Source: Eledone cirrhosa (Eukaryota). From it: DNA of 64,000 bases. Location of the stretch: assembly GCA_964016885.1 (NCBI GenBank), contig OZ024740.1, positions 266,724,001-266,788,000 of the forward strand. The letters run 5' to 3'. This document shows, in pieces, positions 3,860-24,850 of the stretch (the first letter of the stretch is position 1; the number at the start of each line of letters is the position of its first letter). The notes below the pieces were generated by a model that worked only from the letters and a program-made list of their open reading frames with translations, searched no databases and had not been told where the DNA came from. The position numbers and the translations under genes are program-made.

Positions 3860-6800
3860 TTGGGGCCCTTTCTGCCCGTGTGTTTGTTTGTTTATGTGTG
3901 TTCGTATACAGCGTGGTGATAATGCCACACAAGGGCCAAGTGGGATGGCGGATCCACAGATGGCTATGTAAACATACATTCGCCAATCCTCGATAAGAGT
4001 GTTTAAATATCGAACATAAACAGTTCGAATAACGGTGAAATGGAGACTAGAACGTCATGTGACAGACTCTCACCCAACAGGTGCCCCCTGGCTCAGCAGC
4101 AGGAACCTGACTGTCAACCAAATACTGATGATGTTGGAGGAAGAAGAAGAAGGAAAGGGGCCAGAACCAACTGGACGAAAGAATTGAATAGAACTGTTAT
4201 GCAATGCTACCTGAAAAGTAACCCCAAGGAGAGGGGCTACAGGAGACGGATGCATAACATCTGGAACGAGATTGGTTTATTTAAATTAGATGAACAAAAA
4301 TTGGCCGGGCAGGCTCGGGTAATAAGAACTAATGGGTGGATAAGCGAGCTGGAACTGGAGGAACTGAGCAGAGAGAATGGCTTGGAGATGGCGGGTGTAG
4401 TATGCCAGACAAGCGAGCCGGTGGGAAATGAAGGTGAGGAGGTCCTGAGAACGGAGGAACCACCCGAAGCAGACAATGATCTGAATACTGAGATAAATAA
4501 TACCTGGAACAGAGATACGGCCACTGAGGAGATGAATGCTGACGGGCTAGGACAAGATTCGGTTGACATCCTAAATTTAGTGGTAGATGAATTGAACAAT
4601 GATAGTGGGAGACCTATGAACCTAAGATTTGTAGACAGGAAAAAGTTAAAAGAAACAACAGCTAAGGTAAACAAAGTCATCCCATACCTTGAGGCGAGGA
4701 GCCTTCACCAGTGCAACAATATCCTCAAAGCAACAGCAAATACGGTGAGGAAACTACTTGGTATAAAAGCGAGAGGAAACAACAGACAAGAAAGAGCAGA
4801 GCCGTGGTGGAAGAAGCGACTGAGTGGGCAAATCGGGGAAATGAGAAATGACATAGGAAAGCTTGAGTCACTACTGAATGGGACACTAAAAAACATAGGC
4901 ACTAAAAATAGACTGGAAATAAAATACAAAACTAGGAGTAAAAAGCTAAATATTATCATAGAGGAATTGAAGCAACGCATTGTAGCAAAGAGTGCCAAAA
5001 TCAGGCGATACGAGAACAGAGTCAGTCAGTATAAACAGAACCGCATGTTCGACAACAACCAGAAGATGCTGTTTGGACAGCTTGAGGGGAAAGAAAGAGG
5101 CAACGACTTGATCCCTGGGGCGGAACAAGCTAAAACATTCTGGAGAGGAATATGGGAGCAGGATGTTAGACACAATGCCCAGGCAGGGTGGATTGAGACA
5201 GTACAGAGGGAGATAGGTGAGCAGGCACAACAACAGACTGATTTGAGTATCACAGTTGAAACTCTTAAGGGGCAAGCCAAAAAACTAACCAACTGGAAAT
5301 CACCAGGCCCAGATGGTGTGCAGGGGTATTGGATTAAACATTTAACATCCCTCCACCCGAAGCTGACGGCCATGTTCAATGACTGCTTGGTGTCGGGTGA
5401 GGTGCCAGAGTGGTTGACAAAAGGTACCACAGTTCTGATAATGAAAGACCGAATCAAGGGTAATGATGTTACCAACTATAGACCTATCACATGTCTGCCC
5501 GTAATGTGGAAACTGTTGACGAGCATTGTGTCTGAGGAAATCTACCATCACCTCCACACAAAAAACTTGTTACCGGACGAACAGAAAGGATGCCGAAAGA
5601 AGTCACGTGGTACAAAGGACCAGTTGCTTATTGATAAGATGGTAATGGGGAATTGCAGGAGGAGACACACTGATCTTGCCATGGGATGGATAGACTACAG
5701 AAAGGCATTTGACATGGTGCCTCATTCCTGGATCACCAAAAGCCTGGAGATCTTCAGGGTGGCAGATAACATCAGACAGTTGCTGGGCAGGAGTATGGGG
5801 TCCTGGGAGACAGAGTTGACATCAACTGGAGTATACTTGGGAAGCGTGAAGATCAAGAGAGGTATCTTCCAGGGAGATAGCCTGTCCCCTCTGTTGTTTG
5901 TCCTTGCCCTGATGCCCTTGACCATTATGCTGCGAAAAGTGAGAGCAGGATACAAGTTGGGAAGGGGAGAGCTTACCATCAATCACCTCCTCTTCATGGA
6001 CGATCTTAAGCTCTTCGGGAAAAGTGAGAAGGAGTTGGATGTGCTTGTTGACACTGTCCGTATTTTCAGCAGTGATATATGTATGCAGTTTGGTATTGGT
6101 AAATGTGGAGTCATTGTGATGAAGAGGGGTAGGTTGAGCAGAAGTAACGGGATCCAGATACCAACAGGTGAGATGATAAAGGAAATTGACTCTGAGGAAG
6201 GATACAAGTATTTGGGCGTTCTGGAGGCTGATGGCATAAAGAACAAAAAAATGAAGGAATTGTTAAGAACTGAATACATTCGGAGAGTAAGGAGCGTATT
6301 GAAGTCACATCTGAACAGCAGAAATGCCATAAGCGCAGTAAATTCCCGAGCTGTGTCTATTATTAGGTACAGTGCGGGAATTCTGAGATGGAATGTTGCT
6401 GAACAAAAAGAAATGGATAGGAAGACTAGGAAGCTATTGACTATCTACAACATGTTCCACAAGAGGAGTGATGTCGATAGACTCTACCTAAGGAGATCTG
6501 AGGGTGGAAGAGGTCTTATCAGCATAGAGGACTGTGTTCAGATGGAGAAAAACAACCTATACAAATACGTGACCTATAGTAAGGAGCCAATGCTCAGAAC
6601 TGTACTGAAGGAGGGGACAGTAGGCCAGGGGATGTCCAAGGAGGAAATAACATCAAGGAGGAAGAGCAGCCTTAAGGGAAAATCCCTTCATAGTACCTTC
6701 TTTGAGAAAACTGAATTTAGAGATCCACAGACATGGAACTGGTTGAGAAGAGGAGACCTCAAAAAGGCTACAGAAGGAATGCTAATGGCTGCGCAGGAGC

Positions 6801-7518
6801 AGGCCCTCAAAACGAAGTGGTTGAAGCACCATATCTACAAGGAGGAGGCTAGCCCACTGTGCAGGATCTGTGGAGAGAGAGAGGAGACTGTGGCTCACAT
6901 TGTGTCCGAGTGTAAACACCTAGCCCAGACACACTATAAGGGCTGGATACACGATGTGATGGGCAGGGTGATCCACTGGCACCTGTGCAAAGTAAACAAT
7001 CTACCACATTCTGAGAAATGGTATGAGCATAGGCCAGAGGCGGTGATGGAGAACAGTCAGGTGAAGGTGCTGTGGGATTTTAGGATACAGACGGACAAAA
7101 AACTGGAACACAATAGACCTGACCTGGTGGTTGTGGACAAAGAAAAAAGATCGTGCCTGATTGTGGATGTGGCCTGCCCGTTCGACACGAGAGTGCAAGA
7201 GAAGGAGAGGGAGAAAATTAACCGATACCAGGACCTAAGGTGGGAGGTGAAAAGGATTTGGAACTGCCATGAAGTCAAAGTGATCCCGATTGTCATAGGC
7301 GCACTGGGGACTATCTCCAAAGGTTTCCAGGGATGGTTAAAGAAAATCGGCCCCTTCACGCTTTTTGGAACGCTTCAAAAGGCATGCTTGCTTGGAACAG
7401 CAAGAACCCTCCGATACGTCCTGAATATCTGAGGCTGCAGGTAGTGGCTTGATATTCAATCCAACGGACTTTCCAGTTAACCAACATCAATGACTGAGAT
7501 TCAAGGAATAACAATAAC

Positions 7519-7557
<39 letters not shown>
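3860..7557 (+). mobile_element. R4/Dong-like LINE, near full length (5' boundary uncertain; may extend to the (TAA)n tract ending at 2953)
   Basis: ORF above, a 3' UTR of about 75 nt, and a (TAA)n tail at about 7507-7557. Dong-type elements are known to target TAA microsatellites. Confidence 0.8.
4040..7432 (+). CDS. Single-ORF non-LTR retrotransposon protein (RT + CCHC knuckle + restriction-like endonuclease), R4/Dong-like clade
   Basis: Uninterrupted 1130-aa ORF. RT motifs NWKSPGPDG, NYRPITCL, WIDYRKAFD, QGDSLSPLLF, LLFMDDLKL and YKYLG. CRICG...HIVSEC zinc knuckle. RLE motif RPDLVVVD...IVDVACP...EK..RY. R4/Dong-like N-terminus (W..ELN..VM.CY...GYRRRM). Confidence 0.95.
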   Translation: METRTSCDRLSPNRCPLAQQQEPDCQPNTDDVGGRRRRKGARTNWTKELNRTVMQCYLKSNPKERGYRRRMHNIWNEIGLFKLDEQKLAGQARVIRTNGWISELELEELSRENGLEMAGVVCQTSEPVGNEGEEVLRTEEPPEADNDLNTEINNTWNRDTATEEMNADGLGQDSVDILNLVVDELNNDSGRPMNLRFVDRKKLKETTAKVNKVIPYLEARSLHQCNNILKATANTVRKLLGIKARGNNRQERAEPWWKKRLSGQIGEMRNDIGKLESLLNGTLKNIGTKNRLEIKYKTRSKKLNIIIEELKQRIVAKSAKIRRYENRVSQYKQNRMFDNNQKMLFGQLEGKERGNDLIPGAEQAKTFWRGIWEQDVRHNAQAGWIETVQREIGEQAQQQTDLSITVETLKGQAKKLTNWKSPGPDGVQGYWIKHLTSLHPKLTAMFNDCLVSGEVPEWLTKGTTVLIMKDRIKGNDVTNYRPITCLPVMWKLLTSIVSEEIYHHLHTKNLLPDEQKGCRKKSRGTKDQLLIDKMVMGNCRRRHTDLAMGWIDYRKAFDMVPHSWITKSLEIFRVADNIRQLLGRSMGSWETELTSTGVYLGSVKIKRGIFQGDSLSPLLFVLALMPLTIMLRKVRAGYKLGRGELTINHLLFMDDLKLFGKSEKELDVLVDTVRIFSSDICMQFGIGKCGVIVMKRGRLSRSNGIQIPTGEMIKEIDSEEGYKYLGVLEADGIKNKKMKELLRTEYIRRVRSVLKSHLNSRNAISAVNSRAVSIIRYSAGILRWNVAEQKEMDRKTRKLLTIYNMFHKRSDVDRLYLRRSEGGRGLISIEDCVQMEKNNLYKYVTYSKEPMLRTVLKEGTVGQGMSKEEITSRRKSSLKGKSLHSTFFEKTEFRDPQTWNWLRRGDLKKATEGMLMAAQEQALKTKWLKHHIYKEEASPLCRICGEREETVAHIVSECKHLAQTHYKGWIHDVMGRVIHWHLCKVNNLPHSEKWYEHRPEAVMENSQVKVLWDFRIQTDKKLEHNRPDLVVVDKEKRSCLIVDVACPFDTRVQEKEREKINRYQDLRWEVKRIWNCHEVKVIPIVIGALGTISKGFQGWLKKIGPFTLFGTLQKACLLGTARTLRYVLNI

Positions 7558-7587: not shown

Positions 7588-9196
7588 TATATATAAAAAT
7601 AGGGAGAAAAAGACGATTATTAGGAAGAAAAATATTTTTTTTTCCCTTTCAATTTTTCTCTTTTTTCTGGGTTAGAAAATGTTTGTGTGAAGTGTTAAGG
7701 TATTAGTAAATTCATTTATTAATTAACAATGGCATTTATTTATTTATTTATTTATATATTTAATAATTGTCTATTACCGGTTTCGGCATTTTATGCATTA
7801 TCAAAGGGGGGAATTTGTATTGGTGTAAAATGTTGGTGATGTTGAACATGTTAAGGAAATGGTGAAGAAAGAATAATGTTATTTACAAACAAGGTTTTTG
7901 AAGTGAAAAGTAAAAAGGAAAAAAGGGGGTAATGTGGAACATGATAAGGTAATGGGAAAGAAAAAATATTATTTACAGGCATAGTTCTTGAAGATAAGCA
8001 GTTTAAAATGTGTTATTATGGCAAGAGTGCTTAGTTGATCCATGATGGAGGAAAATGGTAGTCTGTGGTTTGATATGATTTCCCTTTTTAGAGAGTTGAT
8101 ATGCAGGGGAGGTAATTCAGAGTGGTCAGGTAGGGGAGAGAGAAATGAGAGAGGATAATTCATTTATATAAGAAAAAGGATTAGGTAGGGTGTAAGGGAG
8201 GTAACTCTTTAGGGATCATAGGGATTTGGTTTTGGTTCATTGTTCGTTCCAGTTTTAGTTTAGTCCGAAGTTTAGTCCATTAAGTAGAGGTTGGAATTTG
8301 TTAATGAAGTACGTTTCCTTATTGGTACGATGGATGAAAGAAGCGTTGTCTATGAATTTGTAAAAGGGGAAAATTTTAAAGTTTGGATGTTGGTTAGGTG
8401 TACAATTGGCGATATGTTCACTAAAAGCAATCTTTCTGTATTCTTGTATTTTGATTTGTGATTTATGGACGGTCATACGTTGTCGGAGGCTGTTTTTTGT
8501 CTGTCCTATGTAGTGCTCTTGACAACCTGAGCAGGTCAAAACATAGATTAGGTTTACAGATGCACATGTAAAGTTGTGTTTAACTGTGAAATGTTGTCCT
8601 TGTTTAAAATGGAATGTTGAACCTTCTATTAGATTTATGCATATGCCAGAGTTAGGCCTTCCGTATTTCTTTACTGTAGGGTTCATTGTGAGGGTTGGTT
8701 GGCTTTTGGCTTGTGTGAGAATGTTTTTTTATGGATTTTTCTCTTTTGCTCTATATGATGTTGTGTGTTTGGAGGATTTTGTTCATTCTTGGGTCTCTTT
8801 TTAGTAAAGGAAAGTTCTGGAGGATGGTGTCGAATGCCTCATTGTTGAGGTGGTTGTGTGTGGATATGTATGGTAGAGTTTTCTGTTGCGGTTCATTACT
8901 GGGTTTGGGGTGTCTGAGTTCCTGGATGTTGAGTTTTAGGGCACGCTGGAATCAATTGTTGATTAGGGATGGTGGGTAGTTTCTGCTTGAAACCAGTAAT
9001 AGACAATTATTAAATATATAAATAAATAAATAAATGCCATTGTTAATTAATAAATAAATTAACTAATACCTTAACACTTCACATAAAGTAAAATATTTTG
9101 TTTTAAATATTTTCTAACCCAGAAAAAAGAGAAAAAAATAAAAGGGAAAAAAATATATGCTTCTTCCTAATAATCGTCTTTTTCTCCCTATTTTCA

Positions 9197-9686: not shown

Positions 9687-9726
9687 AATAAGGAAAAGCG
9701 AAGTGGTTTCAGATGTTCAAGTCCTT

Positions 9727-9918
9727 TAATAATAATTCTTTCTACTTTAGGCACAAGGCCAGCAATTACCCAGTGCATTACTGGTACTTTATTTTATCGA
9801 CCCCGTAAGGATGAAAGGCAAAGTGAACCTCGGCGGTATTTGAACTCAGATCGTAAAGGGACGTAACTATGCTGGAAAGCATGGCGTCCGACCCTCTACT
9901 GATACTGCCAATCCACGG
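9727..9918 (-). mobile_element. tRNA-derived SINE with Nin-like domain and (ATT)n tail (family A), near full length
   Basis: A-box-like TGGCAGTATCAGT and B-box GAGTTCAAATACC. Nin-like GCCTTTCATCCTTACGGGGTCGATAAAATAAAGTACCAG. Many further copies in the window. Confidence 0.85.
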
Positions 9919-9991
9919 CTGTGATATATATTTCAATGGCGAAAGTGGCCACACTGTTCTGTGCGCCAGTCTCGCGACATCGTCAGACAGC
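9918..9991 (-). ncRNA. Type I hammerhead ribozyme motif
   Basis: Reverse complement reads GCTGT-CTGACGA-(stem II)-GAAA-TATATA-TC-ACAGC. Stem I GCTGT/ACAGC is perfect. Confidence 0.8.
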
Positions 9992-11273
9992 TTGTTACAT
10001 AATAAGGTTATGTTTCCGAGGCAATCCAAATTGAATCGACATGGGCGAAACTACTTCGCTTTTCCTTATTCGATATTTACTCCGTCACTCCTATGTGGAA
10101 TAAGTACGTTGAGTGCTTGATTTGAATTGCATCAATGTTTACCCTAAGAATTTAGCTCTAATTATTTGAGGGCTCTATGATGTAACCGATATGGTGGAGA
10201 AGAGAGGAACCAGCCATGAGCTACCCCTGGAAATTCCCTCTTCCATGGGATGGAAACCCCGGACACTGGACGGACATAATAATAACTTTCGGCTGGATAA
10301 ATACGCGGAAACAAAGATAAACCCCTATTTTTCTGCACCAAATCGCATTTGAACAGAAGCCCCCTCAATTCAACCTATACATGGACAAATTGACAATAAT
10401 ATGGATCATTTTCCATATATGTACTCTGTGTTTTTGCATTCATTCATTCATTCATTCACTCATTCACTCATTCATTTATTCATTCATTGGTTCTTTTCTT
10501 TTGTGTACTTTATATATGTTTTGTTGGTTTTGTTCCATGTGATGGAAATTACGACTATGTACCCAATTGACTACTACCCGTAATACTGTAATTTACCCTC
10601 AGTTCTACTGTACGGCACCATCGTTCTGTATGTAGATAGGGTAACTGTAACATTAGGACCCCTTTCAGAACTTCTTACTTAAACATCTCTCTCCATATTA
10701 TTTCCTCACTTCAATCTATATTTTTTCTGCTCACCTCAATCCGGATTCTCACTTGAAAAATCTTTAATTGTTTAATTTCTATTTGTTAATTTTTTAATGT
10801 ATAATTTCTGATACTTGATTGAGGATTTTCGATTTTAAATTGTAATTTTTAGTTCTAATTTCACTTATAACTTCCAATATGAAACTATGATACATAGAAT
10901 TAAAAATATATACTCTTAGGGATTGATGGTCAGTTATTAGTGAGAGGTAGTATAGAGACCTGTAAATACTAACACTCTCCCATCCCCACTGGCTTTCGGC
11001 TGACTGCCACAGATGTGATGGGAAGCAGTAAACTATGGTGCTGGCTTGAATGGGTCATTGTCTGGCTGAGAGAGGGAACTGACCAAGCGAATTCCGTTTA
11101 AATCTGCGGTAGCTAATGGTCAACTTCCCCCTGGACCTGCGCCTGCGCAGACCAGTGGGGGTGAATTGGTGCTCACAGGGGAACGGATGAAGAACCCAAA
11201 AGCACATACTTCGTCCGTTCCCATGTCGATTTAATTTGGATCGCCTCGGAAACATAACCTTATTATGTAACAA

Positions 11274-11347
11274 GCTGTCTGACGATGTCGCGAGACTGGC
11301 GCACAGAACAGTGTGGCCACTTTCGCCATTGAAATATATATCACAGC
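11274..11347 (+). ncRNA. Type I hammerhead ribozyme motif
   Basis: GCTGT 11274-78, CTGACGA 11279-85, GAAA 11331-34, TATATATC, ACAGC 11343-47. Confidence 0.82.
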
Positions 11348-11355
11348 ATTATTAG

Positions 11356-11453
11356 ACTTTGCCTTTCATCCTTACGGGGTCGATAAAATTAAGTACCAGT
11401 AATGCACTGGGTAATTGCTGACCTTGTGCCTAAAGTAGAAACAATTATTATTA
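11356..11453 (+). mobile_element. Family A SINE, 5'-truncated
   Basis: ACTTTGCCTTTCATCC...GTGCCTAAAGTAGAAACAATTATTATTA, with ATTATTA on both sides. Confidence 0.85.
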
Positions 11454-11786
11454 AAGGACTTGAACATCTGAAACTACTTCGCTTTTCCTTATTCGATATT
11501 TACTCCGTCACTCCTATGTGGAATAAGTATGTTGAGTGCTTGATTTGAATTGCATCAATATTTACCCTAAAAAAAAATGTATGTATATATGTGTGTGTGT
11601 GTGTGTATACAATGATATTAAATAAATGGAAACTATATTTATAAAACCATATTTATTCTATTATATATATTTCAAGGGTACCAAAAACTTGTCAGTTATA
11701 AACATTTATATTTGTTGAATTTCCAACAAATTAAATATCCCTATATCCCTTCTACTTATATATGTATATATATATGTGTGTGTGTG

Positions 11787-12001: not shown

Positions 12002-13360
12002 GTTAAAGAAAGAAGAGTAACATGGTAGGCTGTACAATAAGGGTTTTATTTAAAGTACTGACAATTGTTTCGTTGATCAGATGTGTCTAGAGTTGTTGAG
12101 TCAAACAAAGCCGTACGTTAAAACTATCCACGACGCGGAATACTCTATAACGATAACTTGTTATCCCATATATATACATATATATTTATACATATAACAC
12201 CTAACCTAGCTAGCCACATCACATTCAGTAACCATCATAATCTAAGACAGTATAACTTCCACACCGCGGTATCACCCCCCCCCCCCCAAATACACCACGC
12301 CGCTACACCAATACTTACTCTAGTAGCATACCTCCCCCATCTAATCCTTCTAGCACGCACCAACCGCATAGTTTAAACAACCCTACCCTCACTAACCGCA
12401 GCAGTAACTGCAACTGCCGTTACCCTAATGCATGCCCACTAAACGGACAATGCCTTACACCCAATATAGTTTATAGGTGCACAGTTAAAACAGCATCGCA
12501 TTCCAGCTCCTATATTGGCTCTACCTCTAACCCTTTTAAGGTACGCTATAACGCGCACTCATTTTCCTTCTGAGACCCTAGCAATACATGTTCAGCATCT
12601 CTAGCTAGGTTCATTAAAAACCTTAAATTAACAAACATTGAACACTCACTAACATGGGATATCTTGGCTAGAGCCCAACCGTTCAATGGACGAAGAAACT
12701 CTTGTGATCTCTGCCTTACCGAAGCCTATTACATAACTCTATCACGACCTCTACCGATTAATGATAGAACGGAGGTAACTATTTTAGCTGTCAACATCGA
12801 AGGGCAATTCCTTCGCCAACAGAATATTTGACCCAACATAGTCATCTCATCCCACTTTTACTTATAGCTAACATGTTAAATAGTTAACCCTAACTTAGAT
12901 AATTATAAGTTACCTCCCTTACATTGTCTCTCACTTAAAATCATTAGCACTTCTTAACTATAAACCACCTACAATTTCTAATTTCTCGAGGAGTTACTTC
13001 CCCTGAAACCAGCCTCTAATTAGTAAGGTAAATATGTCCTTTGGCGGCCATCTTGTTACCCATAGGCAGATCTCGCATAATGCAGCCTCGACAGAAGAAT
13101 ATTGGTCGGCTATGGCAGACGATAGATAGACCAAGGACACCATAGTGAAATACCAATATATGGAACATTACATTCATGTAACCATCTTTCTTTACTTTAA
13201 TTTATATTCCTTATCAATATTTTCATTATCTCTCGAAGTTCCGATGAACTGCTCCATTTTTACCTAAGTTAATTATCTTCATCTGAACCAGATCAATAAT
13301 GATCTATAATCATTTGATCCAGAAACATTATATGGAGTAGCGAAACAATTGTAAACGGAC
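12002..13360 (+). mobile_element. Decayed Penelope-like element fragment (Hydra-type GIY-YIG)
   Basis: About 12404-12830 translates to SNCNCRYPNACPLNGQCLTPNIVYRC...YIGSTSNPFKVRYNAH...W.ILARAQPF...CDLCLTEAYYI, with one stop and a frameshift. HHR at the 3' end. An HHR 3' half (CGAAACAATTGTC) lies inverted at about 12002-12072. Confidence 0.82.
13238..13356 (+). ncRNA. Hammerhead ribozyme motif with core variant CCGATGA and long stem II
   Basis: GTT-CCGATGA at 13241-47. Stem II base CTGCTCCAT/ATGGAGTAG. GAAACAATTGTA-AAC at 13342-56 (ACAATTGT palindrome). Confidence 0.7.
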
Positions 13361-13545
13361 ATTATTAGTATTATTATAATTATAAAATAAAGTACCAGTA
13401 ATGAACTGGGTAATTGCTGGCCTTGTGCCTAAAGTAGAAACAATTATTATTATTCCTTACATTCCTTACATTAAACTACAACTATGTTGACAATCTTTAA
13501 ATAATGTCTTCCTTGTGAAATTTGTGGTCTTGTTTTGTTTAACTA

Positions 13546-18411: not shown

Positions 18412-19654
18412 CAAATACTCCGTTTTACATCATCCAGCTGTTTCCATAAATGGAATTGGGGATATACAAAAGCGTGGAGAACTTAATATTGCTAACAAAA
18501 ATTTATTGGAGCGTTTGACACAACCAATAATACACCTTACTATATAACAACTATATATATATACATATATATATACAAACGTTTGAATATGTATAATAAA
18601 GCCAAAACAATGCAGGTATGGACATAGAATAAAGAATGCAAATGCAAAAGATATTGTTGACAATTAGTCTTTTACCTTAGATTTATTTAAATGTCCTTAA
18701 TTTTCGAGATAATATCTCTTCTTCAGAGGAAAATAAAGGTCTCAAACCAGCGTTCTAAATAGCTTGCCAAGTCATGCTGACAGGAAATGGTATAGAGTAT
18801 CTGTTCTATCTCTAATGTCAAAGAGTTAAAATTAGGTGGATAAAGAGTAGTCTCCCTTTAAAAGGGGTTTGTTTTTGTTTTGTTTTTTTTTTGTTTTTTA
18901 TATACATGCCTGTTTAAGTGCGCTTGTTATATACGTATTGATTTATTTATATACATTTATATACGTTTATATAATTATTTATTTATATGTATACACGCAT
19001 ACACACACACACATATTTATATGTGCGTGGTTTTGTATACCTATGGTAAGTTTTTGCGTATGCTTGTGTATGTACGTATTTGTTTGCGTGTATGTATTTA
19101 TTTATTTCTATTACTTCTGTATTGTATTTATTTACTTTGTTCTTAACTCTGTAGCGGAGATTCATTCGATCTCCTTGTTAGAATTTTAGTCTACGACTTC
19201 TGCTATACCATTTACGTGGTTTTGTCTTTGCGTGCTATTGTTCTCCACGCTCCATATATGACGTATTATCTTCGTTTTTCTCGTTCATTGCCAGAGAACG
19301 TCTCTATGCACCACCTAAGAGAACATTAGTCTACGACCTCTTTTATACCATAAACGTGGTTCTGTCTTTGCGCGTAATTGTTTTTCACCGCTCCTATTAA
19401 TTCGTTTTTTCCCGTTTTTTCCCGTTTTTTCCCGTTTTTTCCCGTTTTATTATATTCGTTTTTTCCCGGTCTTTGCCAGCGAACGTTTCCACGAACCAAA
19501 GTATCGTCTTCCTGTCTTCCTCCGGTTGCAACGTTTTTTGAAATATCCAGTTCTGCGTTTACAAATTGACTTTGTTAGTTTCAGGGTGAAAGCAGCGATT
19601 CTTTGCTTAAACTTTAATCTGTTATTTTAATAAATATATATATATACATATATA

Positions 19655-21777: not shown

Positions 21778-22110
21778 CATTTCATCATCATCATCATTTC
21801 ATTTTACGTCCACTTTTCCCTGCTTGCAAGGGTGGAACGGGAACTGATTCTGGCTTGAATTCTACAGCTGGATGCCCTTCCTAACACATACCTCATTTAT
21901 AGTGAGTGCTGGGTGCTTTTTTTGCCGTGGCACCTCCACGACCACTTTGCAGTGGAATGATAGGGACCCCAGTCCCTATCATCTCATTTCTACAGCTGGG
22001 TAAACTGGAGAAATGTGAAATAAAGTGTCTTGCTCAAGAAAACACAGTCTGAGAATTAAACTCACAACCTTTCGATTGCAAGGCCAATGCTCTAACCACT
22101 AAGCCATGTG
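21778..22110 (-). mobile_element. Family B SINE with RTE-derived 3' tail
   Basis: tRNA-like head (TGGCTTAGTGGTTAG) and CORE-like body. The 3' end CCCTTGCAAGCAGGGAAAAGTGGACGTAAAATG-(ATG)n matches the RTE 3' end at 19655-19700. A closely similar copy lies at 45808-46140. Confidence 0.82.
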
Positions 22111-22399
22111 TATATGTATATATATATATACATACATATATATATACATACATATATATATATACATATCATCATTATTATCTTCGTTTAACGTCCATTT
22201 TCCATGCTAGCATGGGTTAGACGGTATATATATACATATATATACATACATACATATATATATATATATATGTGTAGGAGGTGAGTTTTATTGTAGTACA
22301 ATAAAGCAATGCAGATATCGGATAAGAAGCACTCTACAGTTTGTAGGACTGGAGTATGCATAATATAAGATCAAAAGATGGTTAAAGGAGTTCCATGTA

Positions 22400-23489: not shown

Positions 23490-24850
23490 TTAACTGTATA
23501 CTTTGTGAAAAGTTCTATGGAATTTATGCAGGCAGATAGAAAACAAATCTGTGCGTCTATTTATTATAGAATCTAGGTTAGAGATAATGGTAAATTTCTC
23601 ATTTAGGCAGAGATTACAGATTTTAGATAGAGAGCTGTTCAAGTATGAGGATGCAGAAGAAATCTTCTTCCAAAAGATGGTATATTTAATGTTTTTGTCT
23701 TTTAAGGACCATATGAGTTCTGAGAGAGCAGTGTTAGTTCTTTTAAGTTTGTATTTGAAAGATGAATGATGATTATAGAGACGAGCTTTAAAAGAGGTGG
23801 AAGTGGAGCCAAAATAGGTGAAGGAATTGGTGCTAGTTATAATTTTACATTCATAAATTAAGTTTTTATCGAGACAATGGTTGTTGAGAGGACATTTATT
23901 TTTAATGCGGCAGTTGCAATTAGAGAGATTATTAATGAGTGATCTAGTGTTATCTATAGAAGGAATTGGATTGGAGAAGTTGTTTGCGATAGGAATAATA
24001 GGAATAATAGTTTCTTGATTTAGAGTTGGATTATGAACATTTAGCGAAGTTGTGTTTGACGTTGTATTTGGGTTTACAGAAGTTAGCCTAGGGTTTACAA
24101 TGACGTCGGGAGTACTATTACTGTTATTATGAAATTCAATATTGGAAGGAAGAGATTTAGTATTTAGTATTTTATTGTTGTGTTTAGAGATGATGTTGGA
24201 AATATTGGAGGATGTAGAATACGAAAATTTGATGGTGTGTTTGTTAAATATTTTACTATAGATATGTGAGGGAGGGAAGCATTTATTTAAGGCACTAAAA
24301 AATAATTTAGGAATATTGTTATTAATAGAGATGGAGAAAGGAGTATTATACCAGATTATGTTTTTGTATCTAGGTCTTTTATTAAAATTATTGGAATGGT
24401 CATGATTAATTATTCTACTGTAAGTTTTTCTAGAATTTCTTTCTTTACTATATTTGATTTTATCTGGATAGCCGGCTTTAGAAAGTGCGTTATTATAGTA
24501 ATTGGCGTTAGCATCAAAGATGTTTTTATTAGAAGATATGTTAGATATTCTATTTCCAATATTATTAACTATAGCATTTTTGATATTGGTAGGATGGTTA
24601 GATTTAAAGTTAACATAATTAAGGTTCTCATTGTTTTTATGGTAAGGGTAATATAGGCCAGTGTCAAGATTAAGAGATACATCCAAGAAATTAGCTAGTT
24701 TGATACTATTATCAAATTCAATTTTTAGGTTATGTTGGTTAAAGAGATTACGTATATTGTTCTTAATAATATTAAGGTTAACTATATTACAATTTAGGAT
24801 AGTAAAGAGTCCATCGTCACGATAAATTCCACCGCGAAGTTGAGGAATTC
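23490..24850 (-). pseudogene. PLE RT C-terminal half plus GIY-YIG endonuclease (truncated but open frame)
   Basis: ORF 23490-24686 plus the in-frame upstream extension containing YRDD at about 24814-24825. Confidence 0.88.

What the first reader, a model, noticed from the sequence alone, without database searches (positions are those of the whole stretch)
9687..11570. Apparently non-coding, ribozyme-terminated element with a SINE at the same site right after the HHR in both arms
Seen: both inverted arms read ...HHR-ATC^ACAGC-[family A SINE]-ATTATTA-AAGGACTTGAAC. The left SINE (9727-9918) is near full length and its 5' end abuts stem I. The right SINE (11356-11453) is 5'-truncated, flanked by ATTATTA, and differs at several positions. 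A third HHR (13238-13356) is also followed within about 30 nt by ATTATTAG and a family A SINE 3' end. Inference: either these are independent, sequence-targeted SINE insertions just downstream of HHRs, or a HHR-SINE chimera in which self-cleavage releases an RNA starting within a few nt of the SINE 5' end (ribozyme-assisted SINE processing or hitch-hiking on PLE machinery). I do not recognise this as a described arrangement.
Basis: partly seen in the sequence, partly recalled or inferred. Interest (0 to 1): 0.75.

Follow-up and report, generated by a model that had tools for sequence, protein, structure and literature searches.

The report
SINE landing spot beside a ribozyme
Two short jumping-gene copies (SINEs) likely landed separately at a favourite ATT-repeat target that happens to follow the predicted self-cutting RNA of a common non-coding repeat; an unrelated repeat with the same target and no ribozyme is hit about as often, so this looks like an ordinary nested-insertion hotspot.

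Summary
The host is a non-coding 1.3-kb repeat with a type I hammerhead motif (1,780 exact ribozyme-end sites) in the inverted, microsatellite-inserted layout of Penelope-like elements. Its empty site reads ACAGC|ATTATTATTAAAGG. SINEs fill 245 of 1,320 such sites (18.6%), with varied 5' junctions. The cause is the target sequence, not the ribozyme. An unrelated hammerhead-free repeat with GC|ATTATTATTAAA is filled at 15 of 96 (15.6%, p=0.58). Other hammerhead families have a SINE nearby at 1 of 50. No chimera moves as a unit: 12 of 12 partner arms of filled sites are empty, both-filled elements have different junctions, and no dispersed SINE carries the leader that cleavage would release. Against this: a LINE-tail control is filled less often (3.7% versus 9.6%), and the mobilising LINE is unresolved. 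The scan noted similar Penelope-borne hammerhead repeats elsewhere in this genome.

The parts
9687..10045 (-). Inverted, 5'-truncated arm of the non-coding hammerhead repeat; ends 59 nt after the target (short end) in a (TC)n/(TA)n array
9918..9991 (-). Type I minimal hammerhead motif, left copy; predicted cut between 9923 and 9922
   Evidence: cleavage not tested
9737..9917 (-). Near full-length family A SINE, blunt 5' junction at ACAGC, no 5' duplication
9727..9736 (-). ATTATTATTA: host target run, also matching the SINE tail
   Evidence: empty sites
10047..11570 (+). Direct unit: one monomer (1,284 nt in tandem locus L003) plus overlap; no ORF over 96 codons in the L003 monomer, no similarity to six PLE-like proteins
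10047..10150 (+). First copy of the 104-nt terminal direct repeat (second copy 11470-11573, 97%)
   Evidence: family D12
11274..11347 (+). Type I minimal hammerhead motif, right copy: stem I GCTGT/ACAGC, core CTGACGA at 11279, GAAA, palindromic ATATATAT stem III; predicted cut between 11342 and 11343
   Evidence: cleavage not tested
11348..11354 (+). 7-nt target-site duplication ATTATTA
   Evidence: empty versus filled sites
11355..11443 (+). 5'-truncated family A SINE
11444..11453 (+). ATTATTATTA host target run / SINE tail
11503..11570 (+). One-sided extension (about 70 nt) absent from the inverted arm; followed by A/TA/TG repeats
12256..12573 (+). Decayed GIY-YIG-like frame of a separate Penelope-like element (84% DNA identity over 1,193 nt to the longer copy in L031); motif recognised by eye, no Pfam hit
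13238..13360 (+). Third hammerhead-like motif, different family (C at position 4, long stem II)
13361..13452 (+). Native ATT tract (13361-13381) with an inserted 71-nt SINE 3' end (13382-13452)

Best explanation
The element is one copy of a non-coding, likely Penelope-dependent hammerhead repeat, and each arm likely received its own SINE later, because the ATT run 5 nt after the predicted cut site is a top-ranked target for this SINE, with or without a ribozyme. Shown: the empty site, the varied junctions and duplications, the SINE's genome-wide preference for ATTAT targets, similar filling of a matched ribozyme-free repeat, and arm-by-arm independence. Inferred: a Penelope-type RT/endonuclease pasted the repeat into TA/TC arrays and made the inverted arm; afterwards a LINE endonuclease nicked the bottom strand at C|ATT, the freed TAATAATAAT-3' end paired with the SINE RNA's AUUAUUAUUA tail and primed reverse transcription, and variable second-strand nicking gave 0-20-nt duplications and 5' truncation.
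For: Empty versus filled: 8 of 35 non-window sites filled in loci picked only by the hammerhead; 245 filled versus 1,075 empty genome-wide with 34-nt patterns. 178 full-length junctions; the 100 listed show duplications from 0 to about 20 nt. Random and gap-sample DNA, 1.2 Mb: 64 of 74 SINE 3' ends begin ATTAT, 0 of 74 have either hammerhead family upstream, 11 of 74 follow another SINE. Matched control 'family X' (about 210 nt, no hammerhead core within reach in 13 of 13): 15 filled, 81 empty, p=0.58; 10 of 12 fetched filled loci show the family X flank with 10 different junctions. Genome-wide [CGT]GC|ATTATTATTAA: full-length SINE at 14 of 308 (4.5%; a few are mutated hammerhead copies) versus about 112 of 1,780 (6.3%; scaled from 63 of the 100 listed, counted by eye), p=0.30. 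Non-hammerhead sites among 30 fetched: 4 of 27 filled. Other hammerhead families: 1 of 50 with a SINE 3' end within 270 nt, and that SINE starts about 60 nt away. Partner arms: 12 of 12 empty.
Against: LINE-tail control with AGC|ATTATTATTA is filled less: 72 of about 1,960 (3.7%) versus 178 of about 1,850 (9.6%), p=9e-14 (denominators roughly raised by me for short duplications). Longer tracts beyond the 30-nt gap and different ages may explain this; not tested. In the 1.2-Mb sample 0 of 31 C|ATTATTATTA sites are filled at that exact base (upper bound 11%; duplications were found for only 36 of 74 SINEs). Family X is small, so an excess of up to about twofold at hammerhead sites is not excluded (95% range 9-24%). 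The candidate partner LINE was found at 0 hammerhead sites where roughly 8 were expected from my rough copy-number estimate. No autonomous Penelope partner was identified.
Confidence: 0.87

Rival explanations
1. Hammerhead-SINE chimera: self-cleavage releases an RNA starting 5 nt before the SINE, which is then processed or mobilised by Penelope or LINE enzymes.
For: The distance from predicted cut to SINE is fixed at 5 nt plus the duplication. The core is conserved: 52 of 73 copies have core and stem I intact, with position 7 the variable one. One junction recurs (ATTATTATTAAAGGGCGGTGG, 11 of 100 listed, counted by eye).
Against: 12 of 12 partner arms empty; three both-filled elements (window, L022, C4:196.41 Mb) each have two different junctions. 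Leader test: 1 hit, which is a hammerhead copy with a point change. The recurring junction sits in different host sub-types (L094, L102, L116, L120) and fits overlap between target AAAGG and SINE start AGGGCGG. The right SINE has no head at all. The window's sub-type has a weak stem II base, and its lowest-energy fold pairs the core (-25.3 versus -21.5 kcal/mol with the core held open).
Confidence: 0.04
2. Sequence preference explains most of it, but hammerhead-adjacent DNA adds a modest boost (transcription, R-loop, or hairpin extrusion at the long stem II).
For: Point estimates are all slightly higher at hammerhead sites (18.6 versus 15.6%; 6.3 versus 4.5%) and the LINE-tail control is 2.6-fold lower.
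Against: Neither matched difference is significant; hammerheads without an ATT run are at background (1 of 50); the third family is at 4 of 33 without the window's copy.
Confidence: 0.07
3. The window's two SINEs come from one insertion, copied or converted between arms, then trimmed differently.
For: SINE difference (4 of 93) is near the arm difference (2-3%); 42% of random copy pairs differ by 4 or fewer of 92, so sequence alone cannot separate the cases.
Against: It needs two separate deletions that mimic ordinary junction types; no shared private change; at 18.6% per site about 3.5% of two-arm elements should be doubly filled by chance, and other such cases have unlike junctions.
Confidence: 0.06

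Closest known systems
Metazoan non-LTR retrozymes (PMC7229834, passages read; bioRxiv 10.64898/2026.07.22.740005, abstract, introduction, part of methods and passages read)
   Same: Non-coding repeat, type I hammerhead in each unit, solo to multimeric copies, proposed non-autonomous derivative of Penelope-like elements; a U.U mismatch at the base of helix II with dimer-dependent cleavage is described for an axolotl motif.
   Different: Unit is 1,284 nt versus 150-450 (PMC7229834) or 51-972 nt (preprint, whose repeat finder was capped at 1,000); mostly inverted two-arm insertions rather than long tandems; circular RNA not shown.
Insertion units of endonuclease-positive Penelope-like elements (PMC8557442, passages read; PMC4209133, abstract to discussion read)
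   Same: Inverted 5'-truncated copy next to a direct unit, one-sided tail, insertion in (TA)n, minimal hammerhead with palindromic helix III and an extra base after position 9.
   Different: No RT or GIY-YIG frame; tail about 70 nt rather than 30-40; G.U in place of G10.1-C11.1.
Nested SINE insertion hotspots inside other repeats: Alu single-nucleotide hotspot (PMC2836564, abstract only); SINEU/Tx1-Mar targeting Mariner-N4 and microsatellite-targeting Tx1 elements Kibi and Koshi (PMC4494074, passages read)
   Same: A SINE repeatedly enters one position of a multicopy repeat, with duplication, blunt or deletion junctions, as its borrowed endonuclease prefers.
   Different: The target here is a short ATT run found in many contexts; only about 0.2% of SINE copies are in this host (245 of about 135,000 estimated), so the SINE is not host-specific; occupancy per site is very high (about one in five).

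Membership tests
Type I minimal hammerhead of Penelope-like elements | Core CUGANGA, GAAA and UH, position 7 variable | tested here: met
   core columns 71-73 of 73 conserved; position 7 C 42, T 27, A 3
Type I minimal hammerhead of Penelope-like elements | Short palindromic helix III, 4-5 bp helix I, extra base after position 9 | tested here: met
   ATATATAT palindrome, GCTGT/ACAGC, T after A9; features from PMC4209133
Type I minimal hammerhead of Penelope-like elements | G10.1-C11.1 pair closing helix II | tested here: not met
   T before GAAA in 72 of 73 copies; upper helix II co-varies between sub-types (read by eye); other families here share a T at this place
Type I minimal hammerhead of Penelope-like elements | Self-cleavage, as monomer or dimer | not testable with these tools
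   No assay; monomer fold favours a core-paired state by 3.8 kcal/mol. No Rfam hammerhead match at gathering score
Non-LTR retrozyme | Hammerhead in each unit of tandem copies | tested here: met
   Tandem units in L003, L013, L096, L120; five sites about 1.3 kb apart at C1:130.89 Mb
Non-LTR retrozyme | No coding capacity | tested here: met
   Longest stop-free frame 96 codons; best tblastn E 0.77 against six PLE-like proteins
Non-LTR retrozyme | Small unit (under 1 kb in published sets) | tested here: not met
   1,284 nt; so filed as retrozyme-like, not as a member
Non-LTR retrozyme | Expressed as linear and circular monomer RNA | not testable with these tools
Penelope-type insertion unit | Inverted truncated arm, tail at one end only, microsatellite target | tested here: met
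   One short end (46-59 nt) and one long end (127-134 nt) in 11 of 12 two-arm loci with both ends in view; ends run into TA/TC arrays
Penelope-type insertion unit | RT and GIY-YIG frame, or end shared with an autonomous partner | tested here: inconclusive
   No frame; a partner was not searched for genome-wide
LINE-mobilised SINE | Variable target duplications, 5' truncation, intact 3' end with simple-repeat tail | tested here: met
LINE-mobilised SINE | 3' end shared with a partner LINE | tested here: inconclusive
   15 of 22 nt match an L1-like LINE end (p 6e-5 before multiple testing; AP endonuclease, RT, zf-RVT), but that LINE is at 0 hammerhead sites
LINE-mobilised SINE | tRNA-derived head with A and B boxes; Nin-type core | tested here: inconclusive
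   No Rfam or ARAGORN tRNA call on these copies; box-like motifs and the Nin resemblance are recalled, not tested
Proposed hammerhead-SINE chimera | Fixed junction inherited in both arms and in daughter copies | tested here: not met
Proposed hammerhead-SINE chimera | SINE presence depends on the hammerhead | tested here: not met
Proposed hammerhead-SINE chimera | Dispersed SINEs carrying the released leader | tested here: not met
   (full-length SINEs with duplications of 11 nt or more only)

The most novel reading that the evidence does not exclude
The SINE acts as a parasite of a parasite: by filling one in five copies exactly 5 nt after the ribozyme cut, it puts a Pol III unit and an ATT tail at the 5' end of the cleaved monomer and blocks its circularisation or Penelope-driven copying, which is why no SINE-bearing copy has left daughters. 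Cleavage of read-through transcripts would also release SINE-headed RNAs from some three hundred loci without Pol III.
Probability: 0.08. Interest if true: 0.6.

Novelty: new member of a known kind. Interest (0 to 1): 0.2.

Why it matters
As found, it is a clean example of a nested hotspot: about one in five copies of two unrelated repeats were hit at one base, which defines this SINE's best target (GC|ATTATTATTAAA) and gives a ready clock for ordering SINE and Penelope activity. It also warns that ribozyme-SINE adjacency in ATT-rich genomes needs a sequence-matched control. A true ribozyme-assisted SINE would be a new retroelement strategy, but the genome shows no trace of it.

Tried and rejected
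Rfam at gathering score found no hammerhead in the window, only one tRNA-like hit at 22042-22111; a strict first scanner missed the motifs and was replaced by one with 55 hits in 1.26 Mb versus 1 in locally shuffled DNA. The Dong/R4-like LINE at 4007-7432 was considered as SINE partner and dropped: its tail is (AAT)n on the sense strand and it enters the ATT tract of L182 in reverse. The RTE-like end near 19620 shows no shared 3' end. The L1-like LINE is a candidate only; a Tx1 label is my recall and the Atlas look-up gave no result. The idea that ATT runs are conserved after hammerheads in this genome was rejected: 2 of 50 other hits have [CT]ATTATT within 50 nt. A worry that pattern counts were incomplete (3 LINE-tail matches in the first 600 kb where 0.4 were expected) was checked on 600 kb drawn from gaps in the list: 0 matches, consistent with complete counts. 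Literature searches (listings and abstract starts) showed no paper on SINEs placed after hammerheads; the library lacks most subscription papers. No supplements were read; those of PMC4209133 and of the preprint may hold helix II variants like this one.

Full report
Observation. The window lies on contig C1 of a 3.0-Gb animal genome rich in TA arrays. The element is an inverted arm (9687-10045) joined to a direct unit (10047-11570) bounded by a 104-nt direct repeat. Both ends run into microsatellites.

The host repeat. The 133-nt hammerhead segment drew 1,072 first-look candidates, and the exact 23-nt end occurs 1,780 times. Tandem loci give a 1,284-nt monomer with no frame over 96 codons and no similarity to six Penelope-like proteins from the window and L031. 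In 11 of 12 two-arm loci with both ends in view, one arm stops 46-59 nt after the target and the other 127-134 nt after it. Inverted truncated copies, one-sided tails and microsatellite bias are described for Penelope-like insertions (PMC8557442, passages). Animal retrozymes are argued to be non-autonomous Penelope derivatives (preprint). I call it retrozyme-like; its unit is longer than published sets and no autonomous partner was identified.

The hammerhead. In 73 aligned copies (duplicate loci left out) the core is near invariant except position 7, stem I is GCTGT/ACAGC and stem III is the palindrome ATATATAT, as in minimal Penelope hammerheads that need dimers (PMC4209133). The G10.1-C11.1 pair is G.U in 72 of 73, and the monomer folds with its core paired by 3.8 kcal/mol. 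A weak helix II base with dimer-dependent cleavage has precedent (PMC7229834). Activity is untested.

Is the SINE recurrent? Yes. Of 37 distinct sites in 30 loci chosen by the hammerhead alone, 10 are filled, 8 of 35 without the window's own (one site scored 'other' by the script was read as filled). Genome-wide, matched 34-nt patterns give 245 filled and 1,075 empty, 18.6%. The 100 listed of 178 full-length junctions carry duplications from 0 to about 20 nt, and filled loci include truncations down to 36 nt and several SINE sub-types. This is the signature of many separate target-primed insertions.

What does the SINE target? In 1.2 Mb (600 kb evenly spaced on C1-C4 and 600 kb from gaps in a C1 list), 64 of 74 SINE 3' ends begin ATTAT and none has either of the two hammerhead families upstream. 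Against 5,339 other ATTAT starts that is about 1%, so the hammerhead site is a real hotspot, roughly 15-fold over generic sites. Only about 0.2% of SINE copies sit in this host (245 of about 135,000).

Ribozyme or sequence? The two were separated. Target without ribozyme: a search for [CGT]GC|ATTATTATTAA turned up an unrelated 210-nt repeat, 13 of 30 fetched loci, with no hammerhead core next to the site; it is filled at 15 of 96, 15.6%, p=0.58 against the hammerhead site. All such sites together hold a full-length SINE at 14 of 308 versus about 112 of 1,780 (scaled from a count by eye), p=0.30. Ribozyme without target: 50 hammerhead hits of other families (20 distinct end motifs) have one SINE within 270 nt, starting about 60 nt away (p=0.001 against 18.6%). 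The third motif's family has a native ATT tract and is filled at 5 of 34, 4 of 33 without the window's copy, at various places along the tract.

Results against. The tail of an L1-like LINE, also AGC|ATTATTATTA, is filled at only 3.7% versus 9.6% by the comparable count. Its tracts are often longer than the 30-nt gap allowed and its age may differ, but I did not test either. In the 1.2-Mb sample 0 of 31 C|ATTATTATTA sites are filled at that base, with about half of duplications detectable. The matched repeat is small, so a boost of up to twofold remains possible.

Does a chimera move? If SINE-bearing copies were templates, both arms would carry the same junction. In 30 loci chosen by a filled site, 12 of 12 other sites in view are empty (the window's own second arm fell outside its locus, making 1 of 13, p=0.27 for independence). 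Three doubly filled elements have unlike junctions. If cleavage released a mobile SINE RNA, dispersed copies would start with ACAGC; the search gave one hit, a hammerhead copy with a point change. For the window's pair, 4 of 93 positions differ and none is a shared private change; sequence alone cannot exclude one origin, but two events need no extra deletions.

Mechanism. Inferred order: Penelope-type enzymes pasted the repeat into TA/TC arrays; later a LINE endonuclease nicked at C|ATT, and pairing of the freed end with the SINE's ATT tail primed reverse transcription. The 5-nt distance from the ribozyme cut is then just the length of the 3' strand of stem I. The helper LINE is open: an L1-like element shares 15 of 22 terminal bases with the SINE but was not found at the hammerhead site. 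SINEs following their helper's target into one place of another repeat are known (PMC4494074; PMC2836564, abstract).

Verdict. Real, recurrent and explained: a nested insertion hotspot in a new retrozyme-like family. Six literature searches showed no description of this pairing, but the controls remove the need for a new mechanism. Interest 0.2.

Noticed in passing
window 4007-7432 (+), arrays 2900-2955 and 7510-7556: Long open 1,141-codon frame with RT and zf-RVT, flanked by (AAT)n; looks like a Dong/R4-type LINE (label recalled). 94-96% copies in L061 and L084.
   Followed up: partly
window +743, +25227 / -22460, +27124, -42830: Five more minimal hammerhead motifs of other families; 22460 and 25227 are an inverted pair around a Penelope-like frame at 23490-24848.
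   Followed up: partly
L173-L202 (family of window 13238-13360): This family has C at core position 4 in all but one copy where the core was matched, and AACGGAC after the cut pairs poorly with the bases before the core; it may be a variant fold or dead.
   Followed up: no
L182 and L194: The ATT tract after the third hammerhead family also holds a reversed Dong-like 3' end (L182) and an RTE-like piece just beyond it (L194): the tract attracts several retroelements.
   Followed up: no
L036, L052, L082, L089, L009: Head-to-tail SINE runs of two to four copies; 11 of 74 sampled SINEs follow another SINE, likely re-use of the duplicated target.
   Followed up: partly
L004:2040-2224, host position near window 10705: A second SINE entry point in the same host family, with duplication ATTATTTACTCACTTCA; its filling rate was not counted.
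   Followed up: no
L133-L159 ('family X'): A dispersed repeat of about 210 nt, 91-95% alike, unclassified; used only as a control.
   Followed up: partly
L082:6638-7694 (+): Three tandem 528-nt units each with a hammerhead (palindrome ACTAATTAGT): a more typical retrozyme array.
   Followed up: no
L091, L095, L115, L117: Filled sites whose upstream hammerhead is partly or wholly missing; deletion on SINE entry or very short host arms.
   Followed up: partly
window 8255-8728 (-): GIY-YIG domain (Pfam E 1e-08) of another Penelope-like remnant just left of the element.
   Followed up: no
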